64,000 bases of DNA from a virus. Its lineage: Duplodnaviria; Caudoviricetes. Location of the stretch: the IMG/VR virus record IMGVR_UViG_3300021311_000001, positions 1 to 64,000 of that record; one strand, 5' to 3'. The translations under genes and the position numbers were made by a program. Below, piece after piece: positions 5,563 to 48,519 of the stretch; position 1 is the stretch's first letter, and the number at the start of each line of letters is the position of its first letter. The notes below the pieces were generated by a model. It had not been told where the DNA came from, did not search any database, and was given only the letters and a program-made list of their open reading frames with translations.

Positions 5563-5581
5563 AGATCTCTCCTACGCCCTC

Positions 5582-5605: not shown

Positions 5606-5622
5606 TGGACTTAGATAATAGA

Positions 5623-7881
5623 TTAAAAATTGAAGCAGGGCGCGACGCCACTGGCGCCACTCGCGTAGTGATTGCTGGCGTTGCCGTCGCTGCTGACATT
5701 GCAGAAAAACGAGCTGCTGCCGCTCCAGGTATACGGGGAACGCTCCCACCAGTAGTACGCGGAACCATTGACCTTCTTCACGCGATTGGCAGCCGTATCA
5801 TTGGCCTTGTACCACGCATAGCGCGTACCCTCGTTCGTTCCGCCCTTGGCGTAAGTGGCAGATCCGAAGACCTCCACCTCGGCAGGCAGGAAGAGCTTAT
5901 CCGCCGTCGTGTTGAGCGTCGCCGTGGAAACGTCCTTCGCCGTAGAAACGTTGACCTGCTTGATGGCGTTCTGCGCGCTCGACGGGAAGTAGCCGAGCAT
6001 CGTACCGCTCATCCACGTCCGAAGGTCGGAGTTGTGCCAGCCGTCTGTACTCGCCATGCTCGCTTTCATCTTCTGCGTGGTGTTGAAGCAGTCCACCATC
6101 TGCATGAGGATGCCGGCCTTGCCCGTAGTGGTAGCCGAACCGTATGCGGTCGCGCTCGTCAGAGCGTAGTGGTTGAAGCCCATCACGCGGAATGAGTAGC
6201 TCGTACCGGAAAGCGTGTAGCTGATAGTATCGCCGATAGAGATGTGGCGGTTATAAACACTCACCCACACCTCGCTCGTATTGCTGTTGATGGCGGAGTT
6301 GTTGGAGATGCCGTTTGCGATCTCGCTGATCTGCGCATCGGTCAAACCGGACAGACCGTTGGTATAAGTAACGCCTGCCTGGGCGGATGTGTACGCCACC
6401 GGAAGGAACTGCGCGTTGACCGTCACGGTCTTATCGCTCGGCGTGGTGTAGTTCGTGCAGCCGGTAACGCTGCACGTCACAGTAACCGTTCCGCTTTTGC
6501 CATTCTGACTCGTCACCGTCACGGTGTTGCCGCTCTTGGAAACCGTCGCGACGGTCGTGTCGCTGGACTGCACGCTGACCGTACCATCGTGCTCGCCTCC
6601 GATCGTAAACGTATCCGTGAGCTTGCTCGCGTTGAGCGTGATCGTGCTCTTGCTCACCGTCAATGTACCAGTCTTCTTCGCGATCGTCACGGTTCCGACA
6701 CTCACCGCCGCGACGTCGTTGACATTGCTGTCGCCCACAACGCGATAGCTCACGGCGTAATCGCCGGCTGCCGTCTCGGACGGACTGGTAGCCGCCCACG
6801 ATCCGGAATTGACCTTGTACTGCAGCGTGCCGTAGTTGGTGGAACCGTCCGTGGCGAGAAGCGCGTGCGCGCTGCCGTCGTATGTCGTGTCGCTTGCCTT
6901 GGTCGGCGCGGTAACGGTCGGCGTCACTTTACCGATCGTCCAATCCGGCGTCTTGGCGGAGGTCGTGCCGTCAGACCACTTATAGTCGTCCTTCGGCGTA
7001 AAGCTCGTGGTGTTGTAGGTGCCGGCGTTCGTCTGCCCGATCTCGGTCTTGGTCATCTTCGTGGCGTCCTCATCCGCCCACATCGGCGTCTGCGAGGTGC
7101 CGTCATAGGTCAGCGTCCCGCTCTGGGACGGCACCGTCGCGATGGTGAGTCTGTCAGCCGTGCCGCTCGTGCGGTTCGCGGTGTTGGTGTTGACCGCGCC
7201 CTCCGTGCTTGTCGGGAAGAACGTCACATAGTACGTCGTGCCGTTGGTCAGCCCCGTTGCCGTCAGCGGCGTCGAAGCGTAAGCGTTGCGCGTGTTGCTG
7301 GTAAAGCTCCACGCCGCGTCGGGGTCGTCCGGATCGGTCGCATAGGAACCGGCCTTGACGACGACCTTCGTGCTGCCCCACGTTGCGAGCGTCACGCCGT
7401 CCTGCACGACCGTCGCCGCAGGGTCAGTCCACTCGATCGCGAGCTTGCCGTTGCCGGCCGCGACCGCGCTCATGGAACTCACATTGCCGACCTTGATCGC
7501 CTCCGGCATCGCGTTGAACTCGTCGGCGGGATCGTCGGTGTAAGTCCCCGTGGTCGTATACGGGAACAGCTTGTAGTAATAGGTTGTGCCGTCCGTCAGG
7601 CCGGAATCGGTAAAATAGGTGTTCTGATAGGCGCTGCGCGTCTTGGAGTCCACCACGACCGTACCATCGCGGCGGCTCACGGGAGCACTGCCCGCCTTGC
7701 GGACGAGGATGGTGCCTTTCCACTCGGCAAGCGTCGTGCCGCCGACCACCACGTCTGCTGGGTCAGTCCACTTGACATATACCTTGCCGTGGCTCACCAG
7801 CGTCGTGATGCCGGAGCACGGTGCAAGCGTTACGCCGCCTCCGCCGCCGCCAGCGCCGGAAGGGAAATTAGAAGTAATCAT
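5623..7881 (-). CDS. DGR1 target: tail fibre/adhesin with FN3/Ig-like repeats and C-terminal CLec-like variable domain
   Basis: Two WTDP...TTYY repeats, Thr-rich Ig-like segments, KLFLP..EVFG, YWWERSP; start MITSNF after GGAGG. Confidence 0.88.
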   Translation of the reverse strand: MITSNFPSGAGGGGGGVTLAPCSGITTLVSHGKVYVKWTDPADVVVGGTTLAEWKGTILVRKAGSAPVSRRDGTVVVDSKTRSAYQNTYFTDSGLTDGTTYYYKLFPYTTTGTYTDDPADEFNAMPEAIKVGNVSSMSAVAAGNGKLAIEWTDPAATVVQDGVTLATWGSTKVVVKAGSYATDPDDPDAAWSFTSNTRNAYASTPLTATGLTNGTTYYVTFFPTSTEGAVNTNTANRTSGTADRLTIATVPSQSGTLTYDGTSQTPMWADEDATKMTKTEIGQTNAGTYNTTSFTPKDDYKWSDGTTSAKTPDWTIGKVTPTVTAPTKASDTTYDGSAHALLATDGSTNYGTLQYKVNSGSWAATSPSETAAGDYAVSYRVVGDSNVNDVAAVSVGTVTIAKKTGTLTVSKSTITLNASKLTDTFTIGGEHDGTVSVQSSDTTVATVSKSGNTVTVTSQNGKSGTVTVTCSVTGCTNYTTPSDKTVTVNAQFLPVAYTSAQAGVTYTNGLSGLTDAQISEIANGISNNSAINSNTSEVWVSVYNRHISIGDTISYTLSGTSYSFRVMGFNHYALTSATAYGSATTTGKAGILMQMVDCFNTTQKMKASMASTDGWHNSDLRTWMSGTMLGYFPSSAQNAIKQVNVSTAKDVSTATLNTTADKLFLPAEVEVFGSATYAKGGTNEGTRYAWYKANDTAANRVKKVNGSAYYWWERSPYTWSGSSSFFCNVSSDGNASNHYASGASGVAPCFNF
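5632..5767 (-). repeat. DGR1 variable repeat (VR1)
   Basis: Encodes GSAYYWWERSP...GVAPCF at the target C-terminus. Confidence 0.95.
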
Positions 7882-8014
7882 ATTGCCTGTGCCTCCTTTT
7901 TTCTTACGGTTTGGAAAACGAGGTCGATTTTGGAACGCCTCGTTTGGAGCATTTTGGTTTTTCAGGGCTGCGCCGCCGCGCGGCACTTCCGGAAATGTGC
8001 CGCCCGTACTGCCG

Positions 8015-8422
8015 TCAGCCCAGGAGCGTCACGACAAACGGAATGTCCAGATCGGGCATCTCACCGTCCGCCGAGATCGTAAGCTGCCCCGCCGCCTGTC
8101 CCGTAACGGCGAGCATTGCTTCCCGCGCGACCTGCCTCTGCTCAAACGTCGCGCTCTGGCTGACGTTGATGTCGCCAGCCTGACCGACCTTGAGACCTGT
8201 AACGGAGACAGTCTGCGTAAACGGAGCATCCACGCCGCTCCAAGCGTTCGCGCGCAGAACGCCCGTGACCTGCGTGCTGGAATCCGCCTTTTCGCCGAGC
8301 ACGCGGTCGATGATCTGCATATTGCTCGTTTCCGCCGTTCCGTTCATTTTTTGCCGCCACGTCAAGAACTTGGTCGTGGCGTCGTCCTCGGTATAAAGCC
8401 CGTAGTTTGTGGTTTGACTCAT
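8015..8422 (-). CDS. tail fibre adaptor-like protein
   Basis: C-terminal part resembles an internal domain of the DGR2 target (L..W...QTV.V.G...P..DIP). Confidence 0.6.
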   Translation of the reverse strand: MSQTTNYGLYTEDDATTKFLTWRQKMNGTAETSNMQIIDRVLGEKADSSTQVTGVLRANAWSGVDAPFTQTVSVTGLKVGQAGDINVSQSATFEQRQVAREAMLAVTGQAAGQLTISADGEMPDLDIPFVVTLLG

Positions 8423-8449
8423 GCTTCACCACCTTCTTCTTTTCAAAAA

Positions 8450-9607
8450 TTATTTCCACCGTGGAGCATCCGCGCCGAAAAGCTCCCGATACAGCGTCGT
8501 GATACCCGCACGCTGCTTCCTCGACATCATCTTGGCGTATCGCCCCATCCACGAGCGGAACGCCTGATCGGACTGCTCGCGCGGCATCCGACCATCCCGC
8601 ACGAGCCTCGCGTGCGCGCGCAGCCGCCGCCTCTCCCGTGTCACGGCTTCGGGACAGATGCGCTTCTGCACACGTCCGCGCTCCTCCAGCCGATAGCGGA
8701 CTTTGAGGAAGGTGTAGCAGTCGCCCAGCCGCGTGACGTGCGTTTTTCGCTCGTTGACAAAAAGCCCGTCGCGCCTTGCGATCTCAGCGACCATCCCGAC
8801 CGTATCCTCCAGATACCCGCGCTCGCGATGGATGAGGTACGAATCGTCCATATACCGCCCGTAGCGCCGGAAGCCCCTCACGACCGTAACGAAGTTGTCG
8901 ATCTCGGTCGGGAAGAACACGCCGATGTTCTGCGACACCTGATCCCCGATGTCCAGCGATTTCGGAAGAAATTTTCCGCCCGTTTTCATATCCTCGGAAA
9001 CCTCCGCAAGATACCGCACGGAATCGAATTTTTCGTCCAGCGCCGCCGCATACTGCTCGTCCGTCAGATACGAAACGTCCACGCGAAACCCGCGCAAAAT
9101 CTCCTCCAGAAGCCACATCTCGTCCTCTTCGAGATGTGGAGCGATCTTTTCAAGCACCTTGTCGTGCCGGATGTTGTCGTAATACTTGGAGAAGTCCATA
9201 AAACAGACCCATCCGTTGTTGTCACCGTACTCAAGGTAGAAGTTGTGCAGATCGCGTTCAAACGCCTTCCTCGCCGCGTCCACACCCTTGCCTGTCTGCG
9301 AGGCGAAGTTGTTGTGGATGATGTACGGCGCGAGCTTCGGCGTGAGCACCGCGTCGCAAAGGGCGTGGCGCACCACGCGGTCGCGCATCCTGCCGCCGTG
9401 GACGTGCCGCGTTTTCCCGCGCTCGTTCAAGAGGAAGTCCGAACCCTGCGAGGTCTGATAGGTCTTCTCCGCCAGCTCGTGCCGCAGCCGGTTGATTTCC
9501 GAGAGGAAATCCGTCTCGAACCGCTGCGGCTCCTCCTTCCACGGGCTGCTCCGCATCGACGCGCGGAAGGCGTCGTACAGCACGTTCATGTCGCAAATCG
9601 TTGACAT
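8450..9607 (-). CDS. DGR reverse transcriptase 2 (385 aa)
   Basis: ERGKTR, DFSKYYDNI, IGDQVSQ, YGRYMDD. Confidence 0.95.
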   Translation of the reverse strand: MSTICDMNVLYDAFRASMRSSPWKEEPQRFETDFLSEINRLRHELAEKTYQTSQGSDFLLNERGKTRHVHGGRMRDRVVRHALCDAVLTPKLAPYIIHNNFASQTGKGVDAARKAFERDLHNFYLEYGDNNGWVCFMDFSKYYDNIRHDKVLEKIAPHLEEDEMWLLEEILRGFRVDVSYLTDEQYAAALDEKFDSVRYLAEVSEDMKTGGKFLPKSLDIGDQVSQNIGVFFPTEIDNFVTVVRGFRRYGRYMDDSYLIHRERGYLEDTVGMVAEIARRDGLFVNERKTHVTRLGDCYTFLKVRYRLEERGRVQKRICPEAVTRERRRLRAHARLVRDGRMPREQSDQAFRSWMGRYAKMMSRKQRAGITTLYRELFGADAPRWK

Positions 9608-9830
9608 TTCCTTAACACTCCGCCTCCTGTGGAATATTGCCGTGCTCCCCTCGCGGGGTTAAGACTCGTGCAGGGAGACAGACGCATCCGTTCCCATAAG
9701 CCAAACCGGCACGGCGCGGCTCCGCCGTCAGGCGCTTGCATTTACCCCGCGCGGAAAGCGCGGAAGAAGGACATGGCTTCCTTTCGCATCGGGCGTCTTG
9801 CCTATCTCACGAGGTCTTATCTGACGCCAT

Positions 9831-9950
9831 CGAAATCCGGACGCACGCCATTAGCGTTGGAAGCGCCGTTGTAGTTCGCATTGCCGTTGCTGTTGACATT
9901 AGCGAAATTCGCCGCAGAAACAACGTCGCGCAACCACCAGTTCGAGCGGT
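9831..9950 (-). repeat. DGR2 template repeat (TR2)
   Basis: 120 nt, ungapped alignment to 10738-10857; all 14 mismatches at TR adenines. Confidence 0.95.
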
Positions 9951-9982
9951 CATTCAAGCCATGCCCTATGAAGCGGCTTATT

Positions 9983-10552
9983 TCAGCCGTTTTCACCGTT
10001 TTTCTGTGTGTTCTTCCTGCCCTTCGGCTTCAAAAGCCGGTTGTCCGCCGTCCGCACGCCCTTGTAGAGCGCCACCTGCGCGTCGATCATATCCGCGAAT
10101 CTCGCATATCGGTTCAGGTCGACGGGCAGCGTGCGGATAATGTAGTGGATCTCCTGCTTGAGCACATAGCATTGCGCGATTGCGGCGTCGATGTGCTTCC
10201 GCCGCTCGCGGAACTCGTCCTCCTTGGCGGGCGTCTCGGACGGATAGATCGAATTGCCAAACGTAAACTCGGATTCGATATTGCGAAGAATGGCGAGCAC
10301 CGCGTCCTTCTCCTTGTCGATGAACCATCGGGTCATCGCGCGGCTTTTCTGCTCCCAGCGCTCGGTCAGCTCATCCACGTTGTCGTTCGCCGCGTGCATG
10401 GAGCGATACCGCTCGATCTTCTTCGCGTACTTCTCCTCGGAAAACCCGAAGTTGTAGAACATCAGCTCCGTCACGCTGTCGCGCAGCTTGTAAAAGTGGT
10501 GCTGCGCCTCAAATCTGGATTCCTTCCTCCGGCTCAATGGCACGTTTGACAC
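9983..10552 (-). CDS. avd: DGR accessory protein Avd 2
   Basis: VPLSRRKES..., GNSIYP...RR pattern; located between VR2 and TR2. Confidence 0.8.
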   Translation of the reverse strand: MSNVPLSRRKESRFEAQHHFYKLRDSVTELMFYNFGFSEEKYAKKIERYRSMHAANDNVDELTERWEQKSRAMTRWFIDKEKDAVLAILRNIESEFTFGNSIYPSETPAKEDEFRERRKHIDAAIAQCYVLKQEIHYIIRTLPVDLNRYARFADMIDAQVALYKGVRTADNRLLKPKGRKNTQKNGENG

Positions 10553-22727: not shown

Positions 22728-25700
22728 TTAAAATAGGTTCTGCTTATGCAGGTCGAGGTGCTTCAAGACCTCGTTCGCCTGCTCGCGGCTGATCTCCTGA
22801 TGCTGCCGCACCGTCTCGGCGTTCCCGCCGTTGATGATCGTATCGCCGAACGTCACGGTCACGCTGCGGTTATTGTTCACGCTCGAAAGCGCTCCGCCGC
22901 CTGTACCGCCAAAGATCTGCTCTCGTACCGCGCTCGGAAGGGACGCCGCCGTGCCCCGCAGCTTACCCATGCGCTCCAAAAGCCCCGTCAGCTTCTCCGC
23001 CATATCCTCGGTCAGTACCCACTCGTGATTCTTGAGAAGCGCGAACTGCTCGTTCTCACGGATGCCTCCGCCGCCGACGATGCCGCCCTGATGGTACACG
23101 TCGTAAAGCAGCTTGCCGACGTTGGACGGATTCAGCTCATCGCGCGTGATCCGCCAGTAACCGTCCTTATTGTATTCCGCGTGGACGCCGTACTGGTCGA
23201 GCTGCGCCGCAAGCTGCGCCGCCTTCGTATGAAGCGCCTCGTTGGTCGCATCGCTGTTGTCGCGGCTCCACTGAGCCGAAAGCCCTTTCATCTGCGCAAC
23301 GATATTGCGCACGGCATTTGCGCTTCCGCGATTGTTCGTATAGCCGGTGTCACTCGGAAACTCCGCCTGTCCTACCGTATCATTGTGCGTCGTACCGCCC
23401 GCCGCCGAAATATCGGCGTCGATGCTCGAAAGGGCGGAAACATAGTCGCCGTAGCGCTGCGCCGCCGCAAGACAGTTTTCCCACGCGCTCGTGATCTCAC
23501 TGTTGAGCACCGATCCATATTCGGTGTTGTACGAAATCAACTCGTCGTAAAGAGTCTCCCAATGGCTTTGGATATACTCGATCGCCATGTCGTAGAGCTT
23601 CTGATAGGACGAAATCGTATCCTCAAGGATCTTGATTTCCCTGTCCTTCTCTTCCTCATACGCCTTCTGCTGCTCGTCCAGCGCGTCCTCCGTCGCCTCG
23701 ATCTGGTGCTCGCGCTGCTGATCCCCGATCTCATCCTGCAGCTCAGCAAGCTCCTCTTCGAGCTTGAGGCGCTTCGCCGTCGCGTCGCGACTCGTGTCGA
23801 GCCGAAGCGCGTCGATCTGTGCCTGCAGCTTCGCCGCCTCTTTGAGCTTGGAGTTGAGCGACTTATGATAGTCGTCCTGCTTCTTGGTCTGGCGCAGCAT
23901 CTCCTTCTGCTCACTGATGATGTCGGCATACGCCTTCTTCATGTCTTCGAGCTGCTGGATCTGTTCCTGGATGCGATGCTTGAGCATTTCCATGACGTAT
24001 TTTAGAATATCGTCAAGCCCGCTCTTCATCTTCTCCAGCTCCTCACGGCTCTCGCCGGCGACCTTGCCGATGCTCTGCACCGCCGTGAAAGCCAGCGACC
24101 GGAGCGCGTTGATGTTGTGCAGCGCCGCACGGTACTGCTCCTCGTCCAAATCCAAAAGCGCGAGGTTGGCATACACCAGATCCCACGTCGATTTCGCCGC
24201 CTCGCTCGTCGCGAAAAGCAGATTGTTCAGCGTGGCCTCGTCCTTCTCCTGCAAGGCGATGCGCAGCTTTTCGATGTAGGCAAGCGCCTGCTCGATTGCA
24301 AGCTCCTCGGTCTTCGCCGCCATGATCTTCTCGATCTTCTCATCCGTAATGGTGAGAAGCCCGTTCTGGTCGCGAAGGAACTGCATATACTGCGCGCCGA
24401 GCTGGATAATGCTCTGGAACGTGTCGATGGAGATAAAGCCGCCGTTTTCGGCAAACTCATTCGCCGCCTGATGGAACTTGTCGTATACATCCTGAATTTT
24501 GTCCACGCCGTCATGCGCCGCCTGCACGATCTTATCCCACGCCTCGGCGGTGATGGAAAGCCGCTTTTTCTCATAGTCCCACCAAAGATCGCTGAGCTTG
24601 CTCACCTCGTCGCTCTCGTCGCTGTAGCCCTTGGAGCGATAGTACGCCGCCTCCGCCGCGATATTCTCCTGCATCTTGCTGTAGTAGTCCGCAATATTGT
24701 CGGTATACTCGCGCACCTTGGCGTAGTCCATGTCGCCGACCGCGTTGTCCAGCCAGTTTTCCGTCAACGTGATCTTGTTCTCGTAGAGCTTGGTAAGGCT
24801 CTCGAACTTGTCGATCACGTTCTGGATTTTGTCCGCCTCGCGATCCCACCAGTCGCCGGACGTCCCCTCGTTGGATTCGTTCCATTTCTCGGTGGTCTCG
24901 ATCAGCTTTTCGGTCGCCTTGATCAGCTCGTTCGTCGATGCCTTGTCCTTGGCGTTCAGCTCGTTGATGTGATCCAGATTTTCGATCCAGAGCTTGTTAT
25001 GCACATCGTCGTAAGAGACGTCAAAGCCCATACCGGCCAGCTTCTCGATGTTTTCATGGATTGCCGCGGCGCGCTCCTCATTGAGCGCGTGCATCGCAGC
25101 CTGCTCGTCCTCAAGCGCCTTCGTCAGCTTCTCACGAAGCGCGATTTCATCGCCGATGGAATGCGTGCGCGCAAGCTGCGCCTCGATCTGCTCGCGCTCC
25201 TTCTGTGCCTCGTCGAGCCTGTGCAGCGCCTCGCGGAAACGGTCAATCTCCACGGTATAGGCTTCAATATCCTTTGCCGAGCTTCCATTACTGCCGCTTC
25301 CGCCCGCCTTCGGCACGCTAACCGTCACCTCCGGCAGCTCAACGGTAACATCGTCCGTGAAGCCCTCCAGAAGCATATCCTGATAGCGCTTCATCGCCAT
25401 ACCGTACTGCGTGGTCGCCTTCATGCCGGGGCTTGCGCTCGCTTCGAGCTTCTGCATCTGCGCGAGAATTTGCATCCGCTTTCCGGCAATGCCTGCCGCG
25501 TTCGCCATCTGAATGAGTGTCGCAATCGTTCCGGCATTCGCGGTCGCAAAATCGGTCGTCGCGATCTTCGCCTCAAGCTGCTTCTTGCGCAGCGCTTCGA
25601 TTGCGGTGATGTCCGCGTTGGTCGCGCCGATCTCACGCAGCTTTTGCTCGACAACGCTCCACTCGGCGTCCGCCAAGCCAAGCGCCGCAACCTTCGCCTC

Positions 25701-27950
25701 CAGCCGCACGAGCCGTAGGCGGGATTCGACCACCTCGTCCGCGTTCGTCACGCCGATCTTTTCGAGCATGGTCTTCACCAGCTCCGCGTTGCCCTCGCGC
25801 AGCATATCGAGCACCGTCGTCGAGTTCATAAACTCGCTTGCGAGGTCGTTCGCCGCCTGTTGCGCCTGTTCCATCGAAGAGGCGGAGTCCATCATCACCT
25901 TGGCGAAATTCTCAAACGTATCGAGGTCGCCGAAAGTTTGACCGATCTCGGCGAGTGTGTCGTTGGAGATCGTGCCGTCCTCGTTGAACTCTTTAAGCGC
26001 CTTACTGAGCTGATTGACTTTGCTCTCGGCGTCGGCGAATTTCTCCGCCATCGTCGCGATGCTCGGATTGTACTCAGTCAACGCCTGTAGCTCCGCAACA
26101 AGCTCAGAAAGCTCCTGTGCGTTGCCGACTTCCAAAATCGCCTCATGGATTTCGTGCAGGCGCGTGGCAAACTCCTCCGCCTGCTCGTTGTTCTTCTCAA
26201 ATGTCGTCTTGTCACCGAAGACGCCGAGGAACAGTCCCTTTTGGTCGTACGCTTGGTAGTTGGTGCTCTTGTCCTTCTTCGCCGCCTTGACGACGTTTGC
26301 GACGTACTTGCTCAGCTCCGCATCGGAAAGGATCTCTCCGTTCGGTAGGATAGGCGTCACAACAATCGCGCTCTCGCCCTCTTGAATAGTTTTCGAGAGC
26401 ACCGTCATCCGGTCGCCCACCTGCGCGTTCGCATCGTGCGACATCACCTTGCTGAGATTGCTGTTGGTGACTTCCACCACACGGCGGTCAAGCAGATCGA
26501 CGTTGCCGCCGTGGGCGTACAGCTCCTTTTCCTCGACGCCGAACTTCTTGAGAACATCGGTCAGGTTCTGCACCCTGTCTGCGCTCTCATCCGCCGCGTC
26601 GCCGGTTTTACCAAGCATTTCGGAAAGTTCGTCCTTCGGGATGTCCTCGACGATCAAACCGAGATCGCGTAAATACTCGTTGACCTCTGCGACTTTCTCC
26701 GCAGTAAGCTCCGCGTCGTCATCGAAGAGGCGAGAAATAATGGATTTCGTCGCCGCGTCCGGATCTTGCATTGCCCGGATGCGGTCAAGCGCCATGTCAA
26801 GCTCGCGGATAAGACCGGCAGACTCCGGATCGTCCGGATTGAGTGCCGCGCGCAGCTTGATCGCTTCGTCCTGCAGCTCCGTCATGCGCGAAAGAGCCGT
26901 GGTCATCAGCTTTTCTTGTTTCTCAGCCTCTTTCGCAAACTTCTGCTGCTCCTTTTCGGTCTCAGCCGCCGCACCGTCATCGACGGCTTTCTCCCACGCT
27001 TCCTTTGCCGCCTTGTAGTCGGCGATCGCAGCCGTAAGTCCGCCCCGTCCCGTGTACTCCTGCACGGGATCGGAGAAACCAGCCGAGGTATCGCGCCAGC
27101 CTGCGTCACTGATCCACTGCCGCGCGTCCTGCTCCGCCTTGCGATAGACTTCTCCCTGCTTGGCGGCAATCAAATCCTTTTGGAGCTGGATCTGCGACTC
27201 AAGCAGCTCGTTTTCACGCTCCAAGCGTTTCAGCTCTTCGCTTTCGACAATGGAGATCGTGCCGCCCTCGCGCAGTGCGCGAAGCTCGGCGAGCCGCTTG
27301 TTGTTGTCGTCCAGCTTGCCGTCAAGCTCCGAAAGCTCATCCTGCAAACCGGAAAGATCGGTCTGCAACTGCTCCAGCGTCGGATGCGCCGCCTCGTACA
27401 GCTCCTTGAATTTCTTACCCGCCGTAATCAGCAGCGGAATGAGCATGAGAAGAAGCGACACCCAGCCCATCGGCGTCGAGAGCATCAGTGCCGCCGTCTC
27501 CTTGAGTGCAAGATTATAGCCCTGCTGCGCGCCGGTCGCCGCGATCGTCGATGCTGTTTTGGCGTCCTCCGCCACCTTACTCGCAAGATATTGCAAAACG
27601 GACTCCGCAAGCTCACCGCGAAGCGCGCCGGTCGCAATCGCGTTTGCGATCGTCGCCTCGGTCAACTGATCCTTTGCTTTCAGATTGAGCTTCGTTGCAA
27701 GCGTATTAGCCTCGATGTGCAATTCTTCCGCAAGCTGCTCCACCGTGTAATTCTGTCCGGCAGCAGTCAGTTTCGTAAAGTTGAGCACAGCTTCGCGCTG
27801 CTGCTGATTGAGCGCGAATTGGCTCAACGCCACCTTTTGTTGTGCGGCGTCAAGGCTTGCAAGCTGCGCGGCATACGTCGCCTGCGCCGCGCGCGTATCA
27901 TCATAGACGATATTTGCGGCGCGAATAGCGTCCACAGTAGGTTTAATTGC
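22728..27950 (-). CDS. tape measure protein, exon 3
   Basis: Long helical coiled coil, C-terminal YHQGGIVG; joins exon 2 in frame (AAG|AIKPT). Confidence 0.85.
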   Translation of the reverse strand, partial: AIKPTVDAIRAANIVYDDTRAAQATYAAQLASLDAAQQKVALSQFALNQQQREAVLNFTKLTAAGQNYTVEQLAEELHIEANTLATKLNLKAKDQLTEATIANAIATGALRGELAESVLQYLASKVAEDAKTASTIAATGAQQGYNLALKETAALMLSTPMGWVSLLLMLIPLLITAGKKFKELYEAAHPTLEQLQTDLSGLQDELSELDGKLDDNNKRLAELRALREGGTISIVESEELKRLERENELLESQIQLQKDLIAAKQGEVYRKAEQDARQWISDAGWRDTSAGFSDPVQEYTGRGGLTAAIADYKAAKEAWEKAVDDGAAAETEKEQQKFAKEAEKQEKLMTTALSRMTELQDEAIKLRAALNPDDPESAGLIRELDMALDRIRAMQDPDAATKSIISRLFDDDAELTAEKVAEVNEYLRDLGLIVEDIPKDELSEMLGKTGDAADESADRVQNLTDVLKKFGVEEKELYAHGGNVDLLDRRVVEVTNSNLSKVMSHDANAQVGDRMTVLSKTIQEGESAIVVTPILPNGEILSDAELSKYVANVVKAAKKDKSTNYQAYDQKGLFLGVFGDKTTFEKNNEQAEEFATRLHEIHEAILEVGNAQELSELVAELQALTEYNPSIATMAEKFADAESKVNQLSKALKEFNEDGTISNDTLAEIGQTFGDLDTFENFAKVMMDSASSMEQAQQAANDLASEFMNSTTVLDMLREGNAELVKTMLEKIGVTNADEVVESRLRLVRLEAKVAALGLADAEWSVVEQKLREIGATNADITAIEALRKKQLEAKIATTDFATANAGTIATLIQMANAAGIAGKRMQILAQMQKLEASASPGMKATTQYGMAMKRYQDMLLEGFTDDVTVELPEVTVSVPKAGGSGSNGSSAKDIEAYTVEIDRFREALHRLDEAQKEREQIEAQLARTHSIGDEIALREKLTKALEDEQAAMHALNEERAAAIHENIEKLAGMGFDVSYDDVHNKLWIENLDHINELNAKDKASTNELIKATEKLIETTEKWNESNEGTSGDWWDREADKIQNVIDKFESLTKLYENKITLTENWLDNAVGDMDYAKVREYTDNIADYYSKMQENIAAEAAYYRSKGYSDESDEVSKLSDLWWDYEKKRLSITAEAWDKIVQAAHDGVDKIQDVYDKFHQAANEFAENGGFISIDTFQSIIQLGAQYMQFLRDQNGLLTITDEKIEKIMAAKTEELAIEQALAYIEKLRIALQEKDEATLNNLLFATSEAAKSTWDLVYANLALLDLDEEQYRAALHNINALRSLAFTAVQSIGKVAGESREELEKMKSGLDDILKYVMEMLKHRIQEQIQQLEDMKKAYADIISEQKEMLRQTKKQDDYHKSLNSKLKEAAKLQAQIDALRLDTSRDATAKRLKLEEELAELQDEIGDQQREHQIEATEDALDEQQKAYEEEKDREIKILEDTISSYQKLYDMAIEYIQSHWETLYDELISYNTEYGSVLNSEITSAWENCLAAAQRYGDYVSALSSIDADISAAGGTTHNDTVGQAEFPSDTGYTNNRGSANAVRNIVAQMKGLSAQWSRDNSDATNEALHTKAAQLAAQLDQYGVHAEYNKDGYWRITRDELNPSNVGKLLYDVYHQGGIVGGGGIRENEQFALLKNHEWVLTEDMAEKLTGLLERMGKLRGTAASLPSAVREQIFGGTGGGALSSVNNNRSVTVTFGDTIINGGNAETVRQHQEISREQANEVLKHLDLHKQNLF

Positions 27951-27992
27951 CAATCCATTCAATAATCCGTGTGATCAGCACGAAAATTATCG

Positions 27993-28021
27993 TTGATTTC
28001 CTGTTGTGTTAGTGATATAAT
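27993..28021 (+). promoter_or_regulatory. sigmaA promoter inside intron 2
   Basis: TTGATT-N17-TATAAT with extended -10 TG. Confidence 0.65.
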
Positions 28022-28051
28022 CCATAGTAAGAAGAGAGGAGCGTGTGTTCT

Positions 28052-28747
28052 ATGGCATTGATTGTGTGTCCTGAGTGCAATCAGCAGGTGTCGTCCGCAG
28101 CGGAGGCTTGCCCGCATTGCGGCTTTCCCATCGCGAACCATCTAAAAGAACAGGAACAAAACTCCTACCATCAAAAACTGCTTTCACAGGTCGCGATGTT
28201 CCCACTCTCATCTCCGCAGCCGCGCGCAAGAGTCTGCGCAAAATGCGCTGAACCATACTTCTATAATACGAATTTCGCCAACAACGATACGCCGATGTGC
28301 GAATGTAATGCGCCGACAGTCGAGATAGACATTTCGCAAGAGGAAATGAGCGGTCGTGGAGGAGTCGCTTCCGCAGACGCGGATATTTTTGAACGTCTCA
28401 TATTTCCACGCAATATCGGCGACAAGTCATCACAGGAATACAAAGCTCGTATTAACGACATATATAAGCGGTTGAACCTCAGCCTTTCCGAACGCGGTGA
28501 ACCGCCGCACGAACCGCCCGCGCCGATCAAGGATCTGGTCGACCGATCACAGTGGAAACCGCAGAGCAGCATATCGCACACGCATGTCAGCGCACCATTA
28601 CGTCCAACCTGTCCATATTGCCATTCCGCCAGCCTCACCAAAATCTCAAAATCCGGCACCTTCCTTAAAATCGCTGCGCTCGGCTTATTCGGTGCGAGCG
28701 ATATTGGGAAGACTTGGAAGTGCAACAACTGTGGAAGTAAATTTTAG
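28052..28747 (+). CDS. multi-zinc-ribbon protein (intron cargo)
   Basis: CPEC..CPHC, CAKC..CEC, CPYC..CNNC; hydrophobic GLFG segment; GAGGAG RBS. Confidence 0.8.
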   Translation: MALIVCPECNQQVSSAAEACPHCGFPIANHLKEQEQNSYHQKLLSQVAMFPLSSPQPRARVCAKCAEPYFYNTNFANNDTPMCECNAPTVEIDISQEEMSGRGGVASADADIFERLIFPRNIGDKSSQEYKARINDIYKRLNLSLSERGEPPHEPPAPIKDLVDRSQWKPQSSISHTHVSAPLRPTCPYCHSASLTKISKSGTFLKIAALGLFGASDIGKTWKCNNCGSKF

Positions 28748-28758
28748 GAGGTTTTACC

Positions 28759-28935
28759 ATGCTCTTTTTACTTGGCGTTGTCGTGCTAATTTTTATGCTC
28801 GCTCGTGAAAGCTCGCAGCGGAGGGACGCGGAAAACTTCTCCAAATGGATGAAAAATAACGCGCCGAATCGCTACGTCAGAAACGACGAAATGAAGCATT
28901 ATATCAACCAGTACAATAACAGCAAACACCGCTAA
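28759..28935 (+). CDS. 58-aa single-TM protein (intron cargo; not in ORF track)
   Basis: AGGAGG RBS then MLFLLGVVVLIFMLARESSQRRD...SKHR. Confidence 0.7.
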   Translation: MLFLLGVVVLIFMLARESSQRRDAENFSKWMKNNAPNRYVRNDEMKHYINQYNNSKHR

Positions 28936-29275
28936 AATAATTGCCTCAGCCGTTTTCGATCTGCGGCGGCCTGACCGCATATCATCTTTGACAGCCTGCC
29001 CGTTTGGGCGGGCTGTTGGATTTGGAGCACCCCATCGCGATCCGCAGACCGCGCCGACATTATGCTCTCTGAACCGTCTCACGCTGCCGTGAGCTTGGCT
29101 GCGGATTACCCTTGCGGGCTTCCCGGACGAGGATGATCTAAACTCGCCGCTCCTTGCGGAGCCATGTTCGTCGGTTTTTCCAACACCCCCTTGCAAGCAG
29201 TCATGCCGCTTGCTCGTTCCATGTCGCCATCGGGGTATAGGCGGGCGCAATTACGGAACCCGTCACTTTGGGTTC

Positions 29276-30013
29276 ACCCGCCGCTTTATTCAGTTGTGTA
29301 AATGCGGAAATAACGCCGCCGACAAACATGGTTCCGAAGATACCCAGCTTGTCGGTCAGTGTGTCAACGACGTCGGAAAGCGCTTGGAAAATCGCAAGCA
29401 CCGTCTTCATGTCGTCGGTCTGCAGCATGTTCTGCGCGACGCCCACCCAGGTTTCCTTCAGGGCGTTCGCGCGGTACTCCACGCTCTCCATGACCTTCGC
29501 CATCTCACGCTCGGCGCTGCCGGCGCTCGACTCCATCTTCTTCATGGCGTCCGCCGCCTGCTCAAAGTTGGAGAGGATAGCGGAACCGACCTGTGCCTGC
29601 CGCTTTCCGAAAAGCGCCTCAAGAAGCTCCGCGCGGTTCTTGTCCGTCAGCTCGTCCCAGATGTCCGCGATGTCCTGCAAGATCGCATAGGTCGAGCGAT
29701 AGGTATTCGGATCGCCCACCTCGAAGAGGCTCACGCCTCTGCCGCCGTTGCTTGCAACCTTCGTAAGGTCGGCGATCTTGCCGGTGAGCGTCGCGACGTC
29801 GGCGCTGTACTCCTCGGTCTCTTCGTCATAGCCGCGAATACGCATGGATAGCGTCTTGAGCGCGTTGCCCGTGGTCGCGGCGTCGCGTGTGATCTCCACC
29901 GCAGCGGTCGCGAGCGCGATCGTCTCCTCAAACGAATTGTTCGCTGCCGACATAGCGCTCGATGCGCGCGTCATCACCTCAACGAGGTCTTTGTTGCTAA
30001 CGGCGAACTTGTT
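29276..30013 (-). CDS. tape measure protein, exon 2
   Basis: NKFAVSN...GNALKTLSMRIRG...LFGKRQA (TP901-type core); 246 codons. Confidence 0.85.
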
Positions 30014-31296
30014 CAATCTGTTACTTTCGGCTTTCACCTACTGACTGCGCCATAGCACAGCGGGCAGGACTTTCATCCTGCCTCCCGCGTTTCATGTATT
30101 TGGATTATTGCGCGGGTTCAGACTGTATCTTCATCTATCAGAAATTATTTGTCTATTGCTAACCAAAAAATCGGTTAGCAAAACAGAGATTTTTTCTGTA
30201 GAGAGCAGCGAAACCGCCCGTGTTACCACGAGCGGTATTACAGTCGTTACGGATAAATGGTATTTGTGATTTTTTCTCTGATTTCTCGCTCCTTGTTGGA
30301 GTCATTCAGCCGAAGCAAAGGAATGTTGTTCCTCTTGCAATACTCGGTTTTTATGGCGTCTCTTTCTTGCGTTTTTCTCAAGGATTCTGTTCCGCCATAC
30401 ATAGGTACAGGAATAAAATGCTGCTTGCCGTCGTACTCGATCAGACAGTTGATACTGTCATCATCATTGTAAACGACAAAGTCAAAAGGAAGCGTATGTT
30501 TGCTCTTGCAGTCTGGGAAGCGCTTTTGTTCGCAATACTTCACGCCCATTTCTTCAAGTATTTGCTTAATCATGCGCTCTCTGGACGACATGACCTTGCA
30601 TCCGCATGAAGTTGTGTGATTTGCCAAGATTTTTGCCGGAAGCGCGACAAACACACTGCCGCACAACGGGCATTTACAGTTCCACATCCACACGCCACGC
30701 TTATTCTGATAGGCACGCGAAAGCAATTCAACGCCAGATGTAGATTTCATACCGGTGAAATCTTTTACCGTTGACTCCCACACCGTTTCTTTTATTCTGC
30801 ATCCGCAAGACTTTGTATGGCCTGTCACTACGTCACTTTTATTGGTTGTTATAACATTGCCACACTTGCACCTGCATACAGCCATCGCAGGCTTCATGCG
30901 TTCGTTCCTTATGATTTTCAAAATCGTTAAGTCATTGAACGTCTGCCCCGTCTCATCATGCTGTTGCCACACAGAACGATGATAACCGGTCATACACCCA
31001 CACGAAGCCGTCTTGCTGTGTCGCAGCGGATACGCCTCTTTGATTGTTTCGTTTCCGCATTCGCATACGCATCTGCAAAACATTTTCTTGTTTCCCTTGT
31101 ACCTTGGCAACATTTCCTTGACAGTAAGATGACCGTACTTCTGTCCGGTCATGTCGATCACGTCTATGTTGACCACCAGCTTTTGTTGTTTATTTCACAA
31201 ATACCAAGTCTTTCCTCGGTCTGATCTGTCCCCAGACTTTAACCGATATAGCTGCTTTCTGACGACGTATCACTACGCCGCTGGGCAATCTTGTTT
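30014..31296 (-). ncRNA. group I intron 1 of TMP
   Basis: Exon ends in U, intron ends in G; P1 UGGGU/GCCCA; P3 AGCAGC/GCUGCU; P7 GACUG/CAGUC (S element AAGAUACAGUCU); splicing restores INEVG|NKFA. Confidence 0.9.
30247..31176 (-). CDS. intron-encoded putative homing endonuclease
   Basis: Three D.TG...C.C.CG...SCGC repeats plus PFDF...IEYDGKQH nuclease motif; lower GC; stop codon abuts P7. Confidence 0.75.
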   Translation of the reverse strand: MVNIDVIDMTGQKYGHLTVKEMLPRYKGNKKMFCRCVCECGNETIKEAYPLRHSKTASCGCMTGYHRSVWQQHDETGQTFNDLTILKIIRNERMKPAMAVCRCKCGNVITTNKSDVVTGHTKSCGCRIKETVWESTVKDFTGMKSTSGVELLSRAYQNKRGVWMWNCKCPLCGSVFVALPAKILANHTTSCGCKVMSSRERMIKQILEEMGVKYCEQKRFPDCKSKHTLPFDFVVYNDDDSINCLIEYDGKQHFIPVPMYGGTESLRKTQERDAIKTEYCKRNNIPLLRLNDSNKEREIREKITNTIYP

Positions 31297-33309
31297 ACCC
31301 ACCTCGTTGATCTTGGAAATAATACCGTCCAGCGTGTCGTTGACGTCCACGCCGTAAGCCTTAATGATGCTCACAAGCCCGTCCGTCGCCATCTGCTGCT
31401 CCATGCCGGGAGACACGGCGGCAAAGATAGCGGAGTTCTCCGCGAGCTTCGCGGCGTCCTGCAAGGCGAATCCTAATCGCGCCCACTCGGCGGTTTGTGA
31501 AATGACCGCCTCGGTCGTCACGTTGAGCCGCTTCGCCGTCTCGTTCGCGCTCTCATAGAACGAGCGATACTCTTCGCTCGTCGCCTTCGTGACCTTGCGC
31601 AGGTCGATCATCGCGGTGTCAAGGTCTACGACCGTCTGGATACCCTGCTTCAAATACCGAAACGCACGGAACAAAAGCGTCGTCGCGCTCACCCACTGAA
31701 GCACCTTGCCGAGGTTGTTCTGGAGCGTGTCACCGAGCGACTGCACGTTCTTGCCGGCAGCCTTGACGTCGCTCTTGAACTTGTTGAACTCGGCGCGCCA
31801 CTTCGATAAGTCGCTGGCGTTGTTCACGCGGTCGAGATTGACAAGAAGCTGCTCAAACTGCGCATTGAGTCCCTTGTCGGTTTTCAGCGCGCTCCACGTC
31901 CGTCCGACCGTCAACAAATCAGCCTTTGCCTTTTCGATATTCGGGAACAGCTTTTCATCGCGAAGTCCCGTGTTTTGCGTCCGCGTCAGCGACGCCATTT
32001 CGGTGTTCACCAACGCAAGCGTTTGGCGGAGACGGTTGTATGCCTCGATCTTACGATTGGCGTCCTGCTCACTGTTCACCGCCGCGCTGAGCCGCCGAAG
32101 CTGCTCCATGTTCGCTTTCAGCGTTTCACTCGGTTGGATAAGACCGTTGAACCGCGCCGTCGCCGCCTCGATCTGAGAGGGCATGACAGCCATCTCGCGG
32201 TTGATGGTCGCGATCGTTGCCTCTAAGTCCTGTCCCGCCTTAAAAGAGACGACATCGCCCTTCAAGCGGTCGAACTGATCCGCAAAGCTCGTCAGGCTCT
32301 TGCTGTCAAACGCGCCAGCAAGCTCGACGCGCAGCGCCGCCACACGCTTTTCAAAGTCAGAAGTCAAAAGACCGGACGACTTGAGCTTCTTTTCATAGGC
32401 GTCCAGCTCGCTCGCGTAGTCCGCGTTGACCTGCCACACCGTCTTGGTGCGCAGCTCCGTAGCAACGTGCTCCGCCTTGGAATACTCCGTTGCAAGCCGT
32501 TCAAGTGCATTGATCTGTGCGTCAATATCCGAGCGCTGCGATGCGCTCAGCGCACCGCTTTCGCTTCGCATCCTCTCGATGCTCGCCGAGATTTCGCCAT
32601 ACCGCTTGTTAAGCTCCGCGAGGTGGTCGCTGCCGACCACGCCGTTTGCGCGCGTCAGCCCCTCATACTTCGCCCTAACGTTCTCAAGCTCCGCTTCGAG
32701 CTTCGTAAGAGAAGCGGCGCGCTTGTCACTCGCCGCTTGCTCTTTCTTCGCCGCAGCCTCACTCGCGGCGTTGAGTTTTTCGATGTTCAGCGTGACGTCC
32801 TTGACCGTCTCGCTGACCTTGCGCCCGTCCTGCGCATACTGCTGCACCAGCGAAATTTCCTTGCCGAGCGCGTCGCGCCCGGAGATGTCAAGCTGCAGCA
32901 GCCGTTCCTTTTCGCGCCCGACCTTTACCCACTGCGCATGGATCTTGCCGACCTGTACGTCCATACCCGTGAGGTTCTGCGTCATGGACTTCATCAACTC
33001 CGAGCTTGCCTCGATGCCCGTGCCGCTCATGGCTTCGCGCAGCATCTTCTTCGCGTCGCCCGTCACCTTGACGCCGATGCTCACCGGCTCCACATGGATA
33101 TTCGAGAGCTGGCGCGTGATTTCGCCCTGCATCCGCGCCGTCGTGCGCTCGTCGAGCGACACACCGACCTTGATACTGCTCTTCTGATTGATTTTATCCG
33201 CGATGGACGGAAGCTGTGCCGAAATCCGCTGCGCGGACGCCTCTTCATCCGCCTCCAGTCGTGTTCTGACCACTACCATCAAATCGTCGTTTTCAGCCAA
33301 GCTCCTCAC
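31297..33309 (-). CDS. tape measure protein, exon 1
   Basis: Coiled coil ending LDTAMIDLRKVT...ISKINEVG. Confidence 0.85.
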
Positions 33310-48444: not shown

Positions 48445-48519
48445 TGGTTGCGGGTGCTGGATTTGAACCAGCGTCTTCGCCGTATGGGGGCGACAAGGCA
48501 TCCGCTCCTCCAACCCGCA
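48445..48519 (-). tRNA. tRNA with CAT anticodon, initiator-like but atypical
   Basis: 75-nt cloverleaf TGCGGGT...TCGCC-CCCATAC-GGCGA...GGTTCAAATCC...ACCCGCAACCA. Confidence 0.85.

What the first reader, a model, noticed from the sequence alone, without database searches (positions are those of the whole stretch)
27951..29275. Group I intron carrying an antisense, independently promoted two-gene cassette inside the tape-measure gene
Seen: the second TMP interruption has a complete group I core on the minus strand (P1 with U.G; Q 29097-29107; R 29062-29074; P7 changed compensatorily to GAGCA/UGCUC from canonical GACUA/UAGUC). P9.0 (AAUCCA/UGGAUU-G) and a 7-bp P10 both place the 3' splice site at 27951/27950 and restore the frame. 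The ~1-kb P9 extension has no recognisable endonuclease. It holds, on the opposite strand, a sigmaA promoter, a 231-aa zinc-ribbon protein and a 58-aa TM peptide. Known: group I intron ORFs are normally sense-strand homing endonucleases. Inference: the ribozyme makes a neutral insertion site for a moron (superinfection exclusion, defence or toxin-antitoxin) expressed in the lysogen, and its transcript is also antisense to TMP pre-mRNA.
Basis: partly seen in the sequence, partly recalled or inferred. Interest (0 to 1): 0.9.

Follow-up and report, generated by a model that had tools for sequence, protein, structure and literature searches.

The report
Spliced tape-measure intron with backwards gene
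The gap in this gut phage's giant tail-length gene is a genuine self-splicing-type (group I) intron that is cut out exactly as predicted, and like dozens of related phage introns it shelters a small zinc-binding protein gene that is read backwards from its own promoter and whose job is still unknown.

Summary
Observation confirmed. Window 29275..27951 (minus strand, 1,325 nt) is a group I intron in the tape-measure (TMP) gene. Contigs of two metatranscriptomic runs join exon 2 to exon 3 by skipping exactly these 1,325 nt. The spliced product is colinear with uninterrupted TMPs of relatives. A hand-drawn group I fold is 99.3% paired over 48 distinct relatives, with 16 compensatory pairs. Rfam gives only a sub-threshold local hit (17 bits).

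The opposite strand holds the best sigma-70-type promoter of the region, a 231-aa three-zinc-ribbon protein, a 58-aa hydrophobic-headed orphan ORF and terminator-like hairpins. No nuclease family or fold was found.

Interpretation partly supported. The intron does act as a container: relatives hold 1.3-4.0 kb of differing genes, including a MazF-like toxin. But the zinc-ribbon gene is not a chance moron. All 14 complete introns examined, the window's own included, carry it backwards beside the 3' splice site. No uninterrupted TMP relative has it (0 of 23). Expression in a lysogen is not shown.

This scan has met the family before on other DNA (93 notes, at least 59 genomes). Six paper searches found no description. 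New variant of a known kind; interest moderate to high.

The parts
29276..30011 (-). TMP exon 2. It carries the second half of the PhageMin_Tail domain and ends ...AAA GCG GCG GGT.
   Evidence: Pfam PF10145 positions 87-201 and phrog_4211 positions 722-950. The joints bound it at 30011 and 29275/29276.
27951..29275 (-). Group I intron 2, 1,325 nt.
   Evidence: RNA-library contigs skip exactly this stretch. Covariation supports the fold. Rfam gives a local hit to P4-P5-P6-J6/7.
28950..29275 (-). Ribozyme part: P1 with an extension hairpin, P2, P3, two extra hairpins between P3 and P4, P4-P6a, P7, P8, P9.0 5' strand, and the P9 and P9.1 hairpins.
29240..29253 (-). Internal guide: UAAUUGC (the P10 partner of exon 3) followed by GCCCGCC (the P1 partner of exon 2).
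   Evidence: Read. The guide covaries with the exons in relatives.
27951..27957 (-). P9.0 3' strand UGGAUU plus the terminal omega-G.
   Evidence: The same element is in L020. All 14 complete introns end in G.
27993..28021 (+). Sigma-70-type promoter TTGATT-17-TATAAT with an extended -10 TG, 43 nt inside the 3' splice site.
   Evidence: 10 of 12. L020 has 11 of 12 at the same place. Motifs are enriched in 14 of 18 relatives.
28052..28747 (+). 231-aa zinc-ribbon (ZR) protein gene, antisense to the TMP. It has an N-terminal ribbon, a middle Cys4 ribbon, a helical part and a C-terminal ribbon CPYC...GKTWKCNNCGSKF.
   Evidence: AF2 mean pLDDT is 81.
28759..28935 (+). 58-aa ORF with a hydrophobic N-terminal stretch of 15 residues. 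It has its own GGAGG and starts 11 nt after the ZR stop. It is an orphan.
   Evidence: It is absent from L020 and L034.
28962..29013 (+). Two terminator-like hairpins with T-rich tails on the + strand. They are the complements of the ribozyme's P9.1 and P9 hairpins.
   Evidence: The first is conserved in L020.
22728..27950 (-). TMP exon 3, beginning GCA ATT AAA.

Best explanation
Intron 2 is a working group I intron. After transcription of the tape-measure gene, the ribozyme at the intron's 5' end folds. The 7-bp P1 and 7-bp P10 guide pairings, with a 6-bp P9.0, bring the 3' splice site from 1.3 kb away. The exons are then ligated in frame (shown: structure, covariation, joined RNA-library contigs; inferred: the chemistry).

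The intron belongs to a large family sitting at one site of the TMP genes of gut Clostridia phages. The family layout is ribozyme, then variable cargo, then a backwards zinc-ribbon gene whose promoter lies just inside the 3' splice site (shown by comparison).

In this phage the cargo is minimal: the ZR gene plus one orphan 58-aa ORF. The cassette is transcribed from its own sigma-70-type promoter, away from the splice site. It is stopped by the complements of the P9 hairpins before reaching the catalytic core (inferred from sequence signals).

The ZR protein has no conserved catalytic residues, only cysteines. I therefore read it as a non-enzymatic zinc-ribbon binding protein that is a fixed resident of the intron, not a homing nuclease. 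Its most likely role is a phage-host or phage-phage interaction or regulatory function expressed independently of the late genes. That role is inferred and unproven.
For: Splicing:
- a 14,283-nt contig in X7 (depth 18.5) and a contig in X8 both skip 1,325 nt at 27949/50-29275/76. They also skip intron 1 (1,283 nt).
- The DNA run X1 shows only the unspliced form.
- In X7 the spliced-to-unspliced depth ratio differs between the two introns: 18.5 to 17.5 for intron 1, 18.5 to 3.5-7.7 for intron 2. RNA explains this more simply than two DNA variants.
- The exon 2 + exon 3 product aligns in one piece across the junction with uninterrupted TMPs L169, L173, L175 and L188 (47-50% identity over 457-507 query residues).

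Structure.

Family:
- The 19-mer of R/P7/P3' occurs in 58 IMG/VR contigs.
- The 5' splice site could be placed in 57 of the 60 oriented loci (58 IMG/VR, L001 and the window's own L002), always at the same TMP site.
- 14 complete introns measure 1,325-3,975 nt.
- The ZR C-terminal domain is in 13 of 13 other complete introns.
- Of 80 TMP relatives, 34 have the core, 23 are uninterrupted, 21 are interrupted without a core hit and 2 are undetermined. An antisense ZR gene lies within 3 kb in 27 of 34, 0 of 23 and 2 of 21.
- In 18 of 22 further ZR loci, a >1,000-aa opposite-strand ORF starts upstream of the ZR gene.

Signals.

Not a known nuclease:
- Pfam, PHROGs and PADLOC match only zinc ribbons and families of unknown function.
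- 11 of the 21 invariant columns in the 14-sequence alignment are Cys, and none is His or Asp; the only invariant acidic residue is Glu8 of the CPEC knuckle, which the more distant relatives do not keep.
Against: - Rfam's group I model stays far below its gathering score (17 against 50 bits).
- Two hairpins sit between P3 and P4, which is unusual, so the subgroup is not assigned.
- All laid runs are contigs. They cannot show strand, transcript ends or the level of the antisense cassette.
- An intron-less DNA variant would give the same junction as splicing.
- RNA run X6 shows only the unspliced form.
- The constancy of the ZR gene is what one would expect of a mobility or maintenance gene, and my exclusion of a nuclease rests on absence of matches.
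- The best structural match is Z 5.2 on a helical hairpin, and Foldseek finds no match with E below 0.001. Neither excludes a new fold.
- The 58-aa ORF has no homologue, so it may not be a gene.
Confidence: 0.7

Rival explanations
1. The ZR protein is the intron family's own mobility or maintenance factor. It could be a new kind of homing endonuclease, or a DNA-binding adaptor that recruits a nuclease or recombinase to intron-less TMP alleles. It would be encoded backwards so that late transcription and ribosomes do not disturb the ribozyme.
For: - It is the one gene common to all 14 complete introns.
- It is absent from 23 of 23 uninterrupted TMP relatives.
- None of the cargo proteins I scanned matched a homing-nuclease family: the window's two ORFs, nine ZR-type proteins and ten other cargo ORFs of relatives. 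Most ORFs of the 14 introns were not scanned. Yet the intron sits at one site in TMPs that are only 33-82% identical.
- Antisense homing-endonuclease genes are known in nuclear rDNA group I introns (PMC9548176; search listing and abstract only).
Against: - No His or Asp column is invariant, and the one invariant Glu (E8, in the CPEC knuckle) is not kept in the more distant relatives.
- The N-terminal parts differ completely between subfamilies. Only the ~45-aa C-terminal ribbon is shared.
- No nuclease family or fold was matched.
- ZR-C proteins also occur outside TMP genes: L147 lies in a 581-kb bacterial contig without a flanking giant ORF.
Confidence: 0.15
2. One reading: the cassette is an ordinary moron (exclusion, defence or toxin-antitoxin) that landed by chance in a neutral site offered by the ribozyme.
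For: - It has its own promoter and terminator-like hairpins.
- Other cargo in relatives varies and includes a MazF/PemK-like toxin domain and a retropepsin-like protease.
- L020 has a second self-contained antisense mini-cassette in another loop: a 12 of 12 promoter, a 27-aa hydrophobic peptide and a 15-bp terminator.
- The 58-aa ORF is present here but not in L020 or L034.
Against: - The ZR gene keeps its position, orientation and presence across subfamilies whose TMP exon 2 is only 33-36% identical to the window's. A chance landing would not.
- No PADLOC family matched at E below 0.001.
Confidence: 0.08
3. What matters is the antisense RNA, not the protein. Transcription from the 27993-28021 promoter makes an RNA complementary to the cargo part of the TMP pre-mRNA. 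That RNA lowers TMP expression, by duplex cleavage or by transcriptional collision, whenever late transcription is weak.
For: - Geometry: the promoter faces into the intron, and terminator-like hairpins lie before the core.
- The arrangement is conserved.
Against: - The protein is clearly under selection. Cys and other columns stay invariant at 30-73% identity, and AF2 gives pLDDT 81. RNA alone does not explain the gene.
- No strand-resolved data exist.
Confidence: 0.05
4. The joined contigs are DNA of intron-less phage variants that contaminates the RNA libraries. In this phage the TMP would really be made as separate pieces.
For: - RNA libraries can hold DNA, and X6 shows only the unspliced form, identical to the DNA run's contig.
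- An intron-less allele would have the same junction.
- Intron-less relatives exist.
Against: - The joined form was seen in 2 of 3 RNA-labelled runs and 0 of 1 DNA run.
- The flanking 1,450 and 737 nt of the X7 contig show 0 differences from the window.
- The unequal spliced-to-unspliced ratios at the two introns would need at least three DNA variants.
- The ribozyme fold is conserved with compensatory changes. That has no explanation if it is never used.
Confidence: 0.02

Closest known systems
Group I introns TMP-IVS1, IVS2, IVS3a and IVS3b in tape-measure genes of Bacillus cereus-group prophages (Tourasse and Kolsto 2008, PMC2504315; passages read)
   Same: - They are group I introns inserted in frame in a phage TMP gene.
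- P1 and P10 are adapted to the site.
- Most lack a complete homing endonuclease gene.
- They are shared by different phages.
   Different: - The passages I read assign those introns to subgroups IA1 and IA2 and describe them with a remnant or complete sense-strand nuclease gene (GIY-YIG or HNH). 'Antisense' and 'opposite strand' occur 0 times in that paper.
- Here the family carries a fixed backwards zinc-ribbon gene and kilobases of other genes.
- No DNA similarity to annotated phage records was found except one unannotated faecal contig. I did not compare the sequences directly.
IStrons (CdISt1, BcISt1; Tourasse et al. 2014, PMC4227781; abstract read)
   Same: A group I ribozyme makes the insertion of a large non-nuclease passenger harmless to the host gene. 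As I recall, the ribozyme lies at the 5' end and the passenger before a distant 3' splice site (this layout is recalled, not read).
   Different: - The IStron passenger is an insertion sequence with a transposase that gives mobility to many sites.
- Here no transposase family was matched.
- The element sits at one TMP site, and the constant passenger is a small zinc-ribbon protein read backwards.
Nuclear rDNA group I introns with antisense homing endonuclease genes (PMC9548176; search listing and abstract)
   Same: A protein gene lies on the strand opposite to the intron RNA.
   Different: Those genes are His-Cys box nucleases in eukaryotic rDNA. Here no nuclease is recognisable, the host is a phage, and the gene has a bacterial promoter.
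Giant mitochondrial ND5-717 group I intron of corallimorpharians (PMC6545197; search listing and abstract; that it holds whole genes is recalled)
   Same: A group I intron with a very long insertion.
   Different: The cargo there is organellar housekeeping genes on the sense strand. It is not a set of self-promoted accessory genes in a virus.
Phage morons (a concept from lambdoid phages; recalled, not read here)
   Same: A gene with its own promoter and terminator that is embedded in, and independent of, a late operon.
   Different: Morons lie between genes and vary among relatives. The ZR gene lies inside a gene, made harmless by splicing, and does not vary.

Membership tests
Group I intron | 5' splice site after a U that forms a U.G pair closing P1 with an internal guide sequence | tested here: met
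   U29276.G29246. The U.G pair is present in 48 of 48 distinct relatives, and two P1 pairs change on both sides between subfamilies.
Group I intron | Terminal G (omega-G) and P10 pairing of the guide with the 3' exon | tested here: met
   G27951. P10 is 7 bp. 14 of 14 complete introns end in G. P10 follows the exon in other subfamilies: GAUUGU with ACAAUC or ACAGUU.
Group I intron | Conserved core P3-P8 with the P3/P7 pseudoknot, a bulged A and a G-C pair in P7 | tested here: met
   The helices were drawn by hand and counted. P3, P4 and P7 are invariant. P2, P6, P6a and P8 show compensatory changes. P7 changes by two pairs against the L231 subfamily.
Group I intron | Score above Rfam RF00028 gathering threshold | tested here: not met
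   17 bits against 50. The local match covers model positions 60-145 only. The model misses this family. I do not treat this as a defining biological feature.
Group I intron | Exact exon ligation in RNA | tested here: met
   Joined contigs in 2 of 3 RNA-labelled runs, and none in the 1 DNA run laid. These are contigs, so the strand is not shown and a DNA origin is not fully excluded.
Group I intron | Guanosine-dependent self-splicing in vitro | not testable with these tools
   This needs a bench assay.
Homing endonucleases (LAGLIDADG, GIY-YIG, HNH, His-Cys box, PD-(D/E)xK, EDxHD) | Family motif or fold in the intron-encoded protein | tested here: inconclusive
   Pfam, PHROGs and PADLOC give no such family for the ZR protein or the 58-aa ORF. 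Foldseek finds no hit with E below 0.001, and the best VIA match is Z 5.2 on 60 residues of helix. No match is not proof of absence.
IStron | Insertion sequence with a transposase (IS200/IS605 or IS607 type) fused to the ribozyme | tested here: not met
   No transposase family in the window's intron. Only weak, sub-threshold zinc-ribbon hits such as Zn_ribbon_IS1595 at 15 bits.
Moron | Own promoter and terminator, variable presence among related phages, expression from the prophage | tested here: inconclusive
   Promoter and terminator-like sites are present. Variable presence is met for the 58-aa ORF but not for the ZR gene. Expression from a prophage was not tested.
LITAF/BRI3-like membrane-inserting zinc ribbon (a lead only) | Two zinc knuckles flanking a hydrophobic membrane hairpin | tested here: inconclusive
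   The C-terminal ribbon has CxxC...CxxC around FLKIAALGLFGA. AF2 pLDDT is below 50 for residues 200-216. One relative (L097) hits PF10164 BRI3 at 21.3 bits, below its 25.9 cut-off.

The most novel reading that the evidence does not exclude
The ~45-aa C-terminal zinc ribbon (CPxCxS...GKxWxCxxCxSxF) marks a new class of intron-resident protein. It would be a non-nuclease partner that this group I intron family needs for its own persistence. It might guide recombination into intron-less TMP alleles. Or it might be a membrane-associated factor aimed at the tape-measure protein of incoming rival phages, kept genetically welded to the TMP allele it must spare. On this reading the intron plus ZR gene is a composite selfish element that also serves as a loading bay for further accessory genes inside an essential virion gene.
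Probability: 0.25. Interest if true: 0.85.

Novelty: new variant of a known kind. Interest (0 to 1): 0.62.

Why it matters
Group I introns in phages are textbook selfish elements whose only passenger is a homing nuclease. Here a whole family lacks a recognisable nuclease. The family is abundant in gut Clostridia phages: 58 IMG/VR contigs share one exact 19-mer. It always keeps one small backwards zinc-ribbon gene and often adds kilobases of accessory genes, toxin-antitoxin-type genes among them, inside an essential tail gene.

This raises two testable questions. How does such an intron spread or persist? Is splicing being used as a general device to hide independently expressed genes inside late operons?

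It also matters for annotation. Standard RNA models miss the intron (17 bits), so these tape-measure genes may be annotated as broken or split, and the passengers as intergenic genes.

For this window in particular, the metatranscriptome contigs give rare direct support that both TMP introns are removed in nature.

Tried and rejected
- Rfam at gathering threshold over the whole window found no intron. The permissive searches gave only the 62-nt local hit.
- RNAalifold cannot draw the P3/P7 pseudoknot. It proposed a competing helix, columns 114-122 with 324-332. I replaced it with the canonical P2 and P7 and tested that by counting.
- I did not build a covariance model, because a ~300-position model would exceed the time limit stated for that tool. 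A sequence-only nhmmer profile of A2 was used instead.
- Brevibacillus phage Sundance TMP confirmed the intron 1 junction (848 to 849). It is too diverged after exon 2 to test the intron 2 junction.
- The first search for relatives with exon 3 alone found none.
- PHROGs on the first 500 aa of exon 3 gave nothing useful.
- Inverted-repeat search found no long helix closing off the cargo. A second GCAAUUA at 28944-28938 that could mimic the 3' exon is not conserved in L020, so I dropped it as chance.
- A Walker-A-like string (GASDIGKT) in the C-terminal ribbon was considered. I rejected it: it is not kept in other subfamilies and lies inside a 45-aa zinc ribbon.
- ESM Atlas gave only unnamed viral zinc-ribbon clusters, scores 0.90-0.93.
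- Foldseek against pdb and VIA-align wide gave no informative fold.
In each related locus where I compared the coordinates (L063, L064, L065, L075) exon 1 runs straight into exon 2, so intron 1 is absent there.
- Depth differences inside the intron in X7 (6.9-7.8 over the 5' half of ZR, 3.5 over the core) might hint at an extra antisense transcript. Contig depths cannot carry that claim.
- Parts of the stretch without cover in X7 and X8 are not interpreted.
- Supplementary files of papers were not opened. Tables of intron sequences in PMC2504315 and PMC4227781 might show relatives that I could not compare.
Full report
**Setting.** The window is the first 64 kb of a 126,284-bp virus record with direct terminal repeats. 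On the minus strand the tape-measure (TMP) gene lies in three open pieces: 33309-31273, 30037-29201 and 27962-22728.
- Piece 1 matches Pfam PhageMin_Tail positions 3-87 and phrog_4211 positions 447-721.
- Piece 2 matches PhageMin_Tail 87-201 and phrog_4211 722-950.
- The first gap holds a 309-aa sense-strand nuclease gene (phrog_559, phrog_9084, DUF2726).
- The finding concerns the second gap.

**Check of the observation.**
- P1: 29282-29276 with 29246-29240, ending in U29276.G29246.
- P10: UAAUUGC (29253-29247) with the first seven bases of exon 3.
- P3: 29174-29170 with 29058-29054.
- P7: G29069 and 29067-29063 with 29029-29024, with A29068 bulged.
- P9.0: AAUCCA (29022-29017) with UGGAUU (27957-27952), then omega-G at 27951.
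- The frame is restored: ...AAA GCG GCG GGT | GCA ATT AAA...

Rfam does not call the intron at its own threshold. Its group I model does align locally to P4, P5, P6 and J6/7 at 29127-29066 (17 bits; E 0.044 in the 366 bases searched).

**Relatives and covariation.** One unannotated faecal phage contig in GenBank holds the same intron at the same TMP site with other cargo. The 19-base R/P7/P3' string occurs in 58 IMG/VR contigs.
- The 5' splice site could be placed in 57 of the 60 oriented loci (58 IMG/VR, L001 and the window's own L002). It always follows GGGT at the homologous TMP position.
- The guide changes with the exon. GCGGGU pairs with GCCCGC in the window, L020 and L034. CUGGGU pairs with GCCCAG in the other 54.
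- I aligned 48 distinct cores and counted a hand-drawn group I structure with the P3/P7 pseudoknot. Of 59 pairs, 99.3% of cells pair and 16 pairs carry changes on both sides. 0 of 500 shuffles reach the observed values. Slid controls give 37-48% paired and 0-3 such pairs.
- P3, P4 and P7 never vary within this set. A sister subfamily at the same TMP site (L231-L246) has the canonical GACUA/UAGUC.

**Splicing.** Public runs that hold this DNA are animal faeces and gut samples. I laid three RNA-labelled runs and one DNA run on 26500-31600.
- In X7 a 14,283-nt contig (depth 18.5) joins 27949 to 29275, skipping 1,325 nt. In X8 a contig does the same.
- The joint has one base of ambiguity. That makes it identical to the predicted 27951-29275.
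- The same runs skip 1,283 nt at 30011-31295, which is intron 1.
- The DNA run X1 and RNA run X6 show only the intron-containing contig.
- These are contigs, so strand and transcript ends are unknown. An intron-less DNA allele would give the same joint.
- Against a DNA origin: the exon parts are letter-perfect, and the two introns have unequal spliced-to-unspliced depths in X7.
- Independently, the exon 2 + exon 3 product aligns in one segment across the junction with uninterrupted TMPs of relatives (47-50% identity over 457-507 query residues).

**The antisense cassette.**
- The best promoter-like site in 27700-31500 is TTGATT-17-TATAAT with TG at 27993-28021 (10 of 12). It lies 43 nt inside the 3' splice site and faces inward.
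- A GGAG box precedes the ATG at 28052.
- The 231-aa product has an N-terminal zinc ribbon (UPF0547/Zn_ribbon_3), a middle Cys4 unit, helices, a proline-rich linker and a C-terminal ribbon.
- AF2 on a 14-sequence alignment gives mean pLDDT 81 and pTM 0.61.
- Eleven bases after its stop, behind GGAGG, starts a 58-aa ORF with 15 hydrophobic residues at its N-terminus. It has no homologue among 5.8 billion proteins.
- Two + strand terminator-like hairpins follow (28962-28979 and 28998-29013). They are the complements of the ribozyme's P9.1 and P9 hairpins. The first is kept in L020.
- No nuclease, transposase or defence family is matched. No solved fold is informative.

**What the family shows.**
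- Fourteen introns with both ends in hand measure 1,325-3,975 nt, and the window's is the shortest.
- All fourteen have a 199-234-aa gene on the opposite strand next to the 3' splice site. All thirteen others share the window protein's C-terminal ~45 residues (E from 2e-113 to 4e-6). The N-terminal parts differ between subfamilies.
- The remaining cargo varies and lies on both strands. It includes a MazF/PemK-like domain (L052) and a retropepsin-like protease (L008).
- L020 and L034 are the closest relatives (82% in exon 2). They keep the ZR gene (68% identity) and its promoter (11 of 12), and they lack the 58-aa ORF.
- L020 and L034 also carry a second backwards mini-cassette in the P6 region: a 12 of 12 promoter, a 27-aa hydrophobic peptide and a 15-bp terminator.

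Starting from the ZR protein:
- 18 of the 80 loci kept in IMG/VR have the intron core on the opposite strand by nhmmer.
- In 18 of 22 further loci, a >1,000-aa opposite-strand ORF begins upstream of the ZR gene, often followed by a long same-strand gene row.

Starting from the TMP, of 80 relatives:
- 34 have the core after exon 2, 23 are uninterrupted, 21 are interrupted without a core hit and 2 are undetermined.
- A backwards ZR gene lies within 3 kb in 27 of 34, 0 of 23 and 2 of 21.

Promoter-like motifs of at least 9 of 12 lie upstream of ZR in 14 of 18 loci, against 21% of control windows. Relatives in GTDB are in MAGs of Oscillospiraceae, Lachnospiraceae, Clostridiaceae and the like.

**Reading.** The ribozyme and its splice sites are real and used. 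The zinc-ribbon gene itself is the fixed companion of the intron, not a chance passenger. Eleven of the 21 invariant columns are cysteines and none is His or Asp; the single invariant Glu lies in the CPEC knuckle and is lost in more distant relatives. So I favour a non-enzymatic binding protein. A mobility role, a TMP-directed exclusion role and an antisense-RNA role remain open and are ranked in the rivals. Lysogeny is possible, since the genome has two tyrosine recombinase genes, but it is not shown.

**Known and new.**
- Group I introns in TMP genes are in print (PMC2504315; passages). Spliced introns in tail genes of Cluster J mycobacteriophages are also published (PMC3706429; passages).
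- Published precedents for single features are IStrons (PMC4227781; abstract), antisense nuclease genes in rDNA introns (PMC9548176; listing and abstract) and giant mitochondrial introns (PMC6545197; listing and abstract).
- Six full-text searches found no description of a phage intron family with a fixed backwards zinc-ribbon gene and accessory cargo.
- This scan has noted the family many times on other DNA (93 notes in at least 59 genomes). Those notes reach the same verdict as mine, that the gene is a fixed resident. They are unchecked AI notes, not independent evidence.

Noticed in passing
window 30012-31294 (minus strand): Intron 1 of the TMP gene is also skipped in the RNA-library contigs of X7 and X8 (1,283 nt, two bases of ambiguity). 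It carries a 309-aa sense-strand nuclease gene (30247-31176; phrog_559, phrog_9084, DUF2726). In each related locus where I compared the coordinates (L063, L064, L065, L075) exon 1 runs straight into exon 2, so intron 1 is absent there and may be a recent gain.
   Followed up: partly
L020 1479-1730 (also L034): The closest relative's intron has an extra ~280-nt insert in the P6 region. The insert is a self-contained backwards mini-gene: a perfect TTGACA-17-TATAAT promoter, a 27-aa hydrophobic peptide and a 15-bp-stem terminator. It looks like a type I toxin-like or small membrane peptide cassette.
   Followed up: partly
window 4659-4936 (minus strand): Strong match to Rfam RT-2 RNA (125 bits, full length).
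   Followed up: no
window 48448-48519 (minus strand): A tRNA gene (50.7 bits) inside the phage genome.
   Followed up: no
L027, L033, L038, L041, L044, L054: In several relatives the exon 2 equivalent is itself split again, near residues 57-60 or 143-145 of the window's exon 2. So TMP genes of this phage group hold further interruptions at other sites.
   Followed up: no
window 59889-60368 (minus strand) and G000:C1:125598-126083: Two tyrosine-recombinase (Phage_integrase) genes in a 126-kb phage with terminal repeats. This is compatible with a temperate or plasmid-prophage lifestyle.
   Followed up: no
L066, L068, L069, L076 (about 5000-10500 in each locus): In more distant phages the backwards ZR gene heads a row of five or six same-strand genes (more than 5 kb) inside the TMP gene, but the nhmmer core profile finds no ribozyme there. 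Either the core has diverged beyond the profile or another kind of interruption is at work.
   Followed up: no
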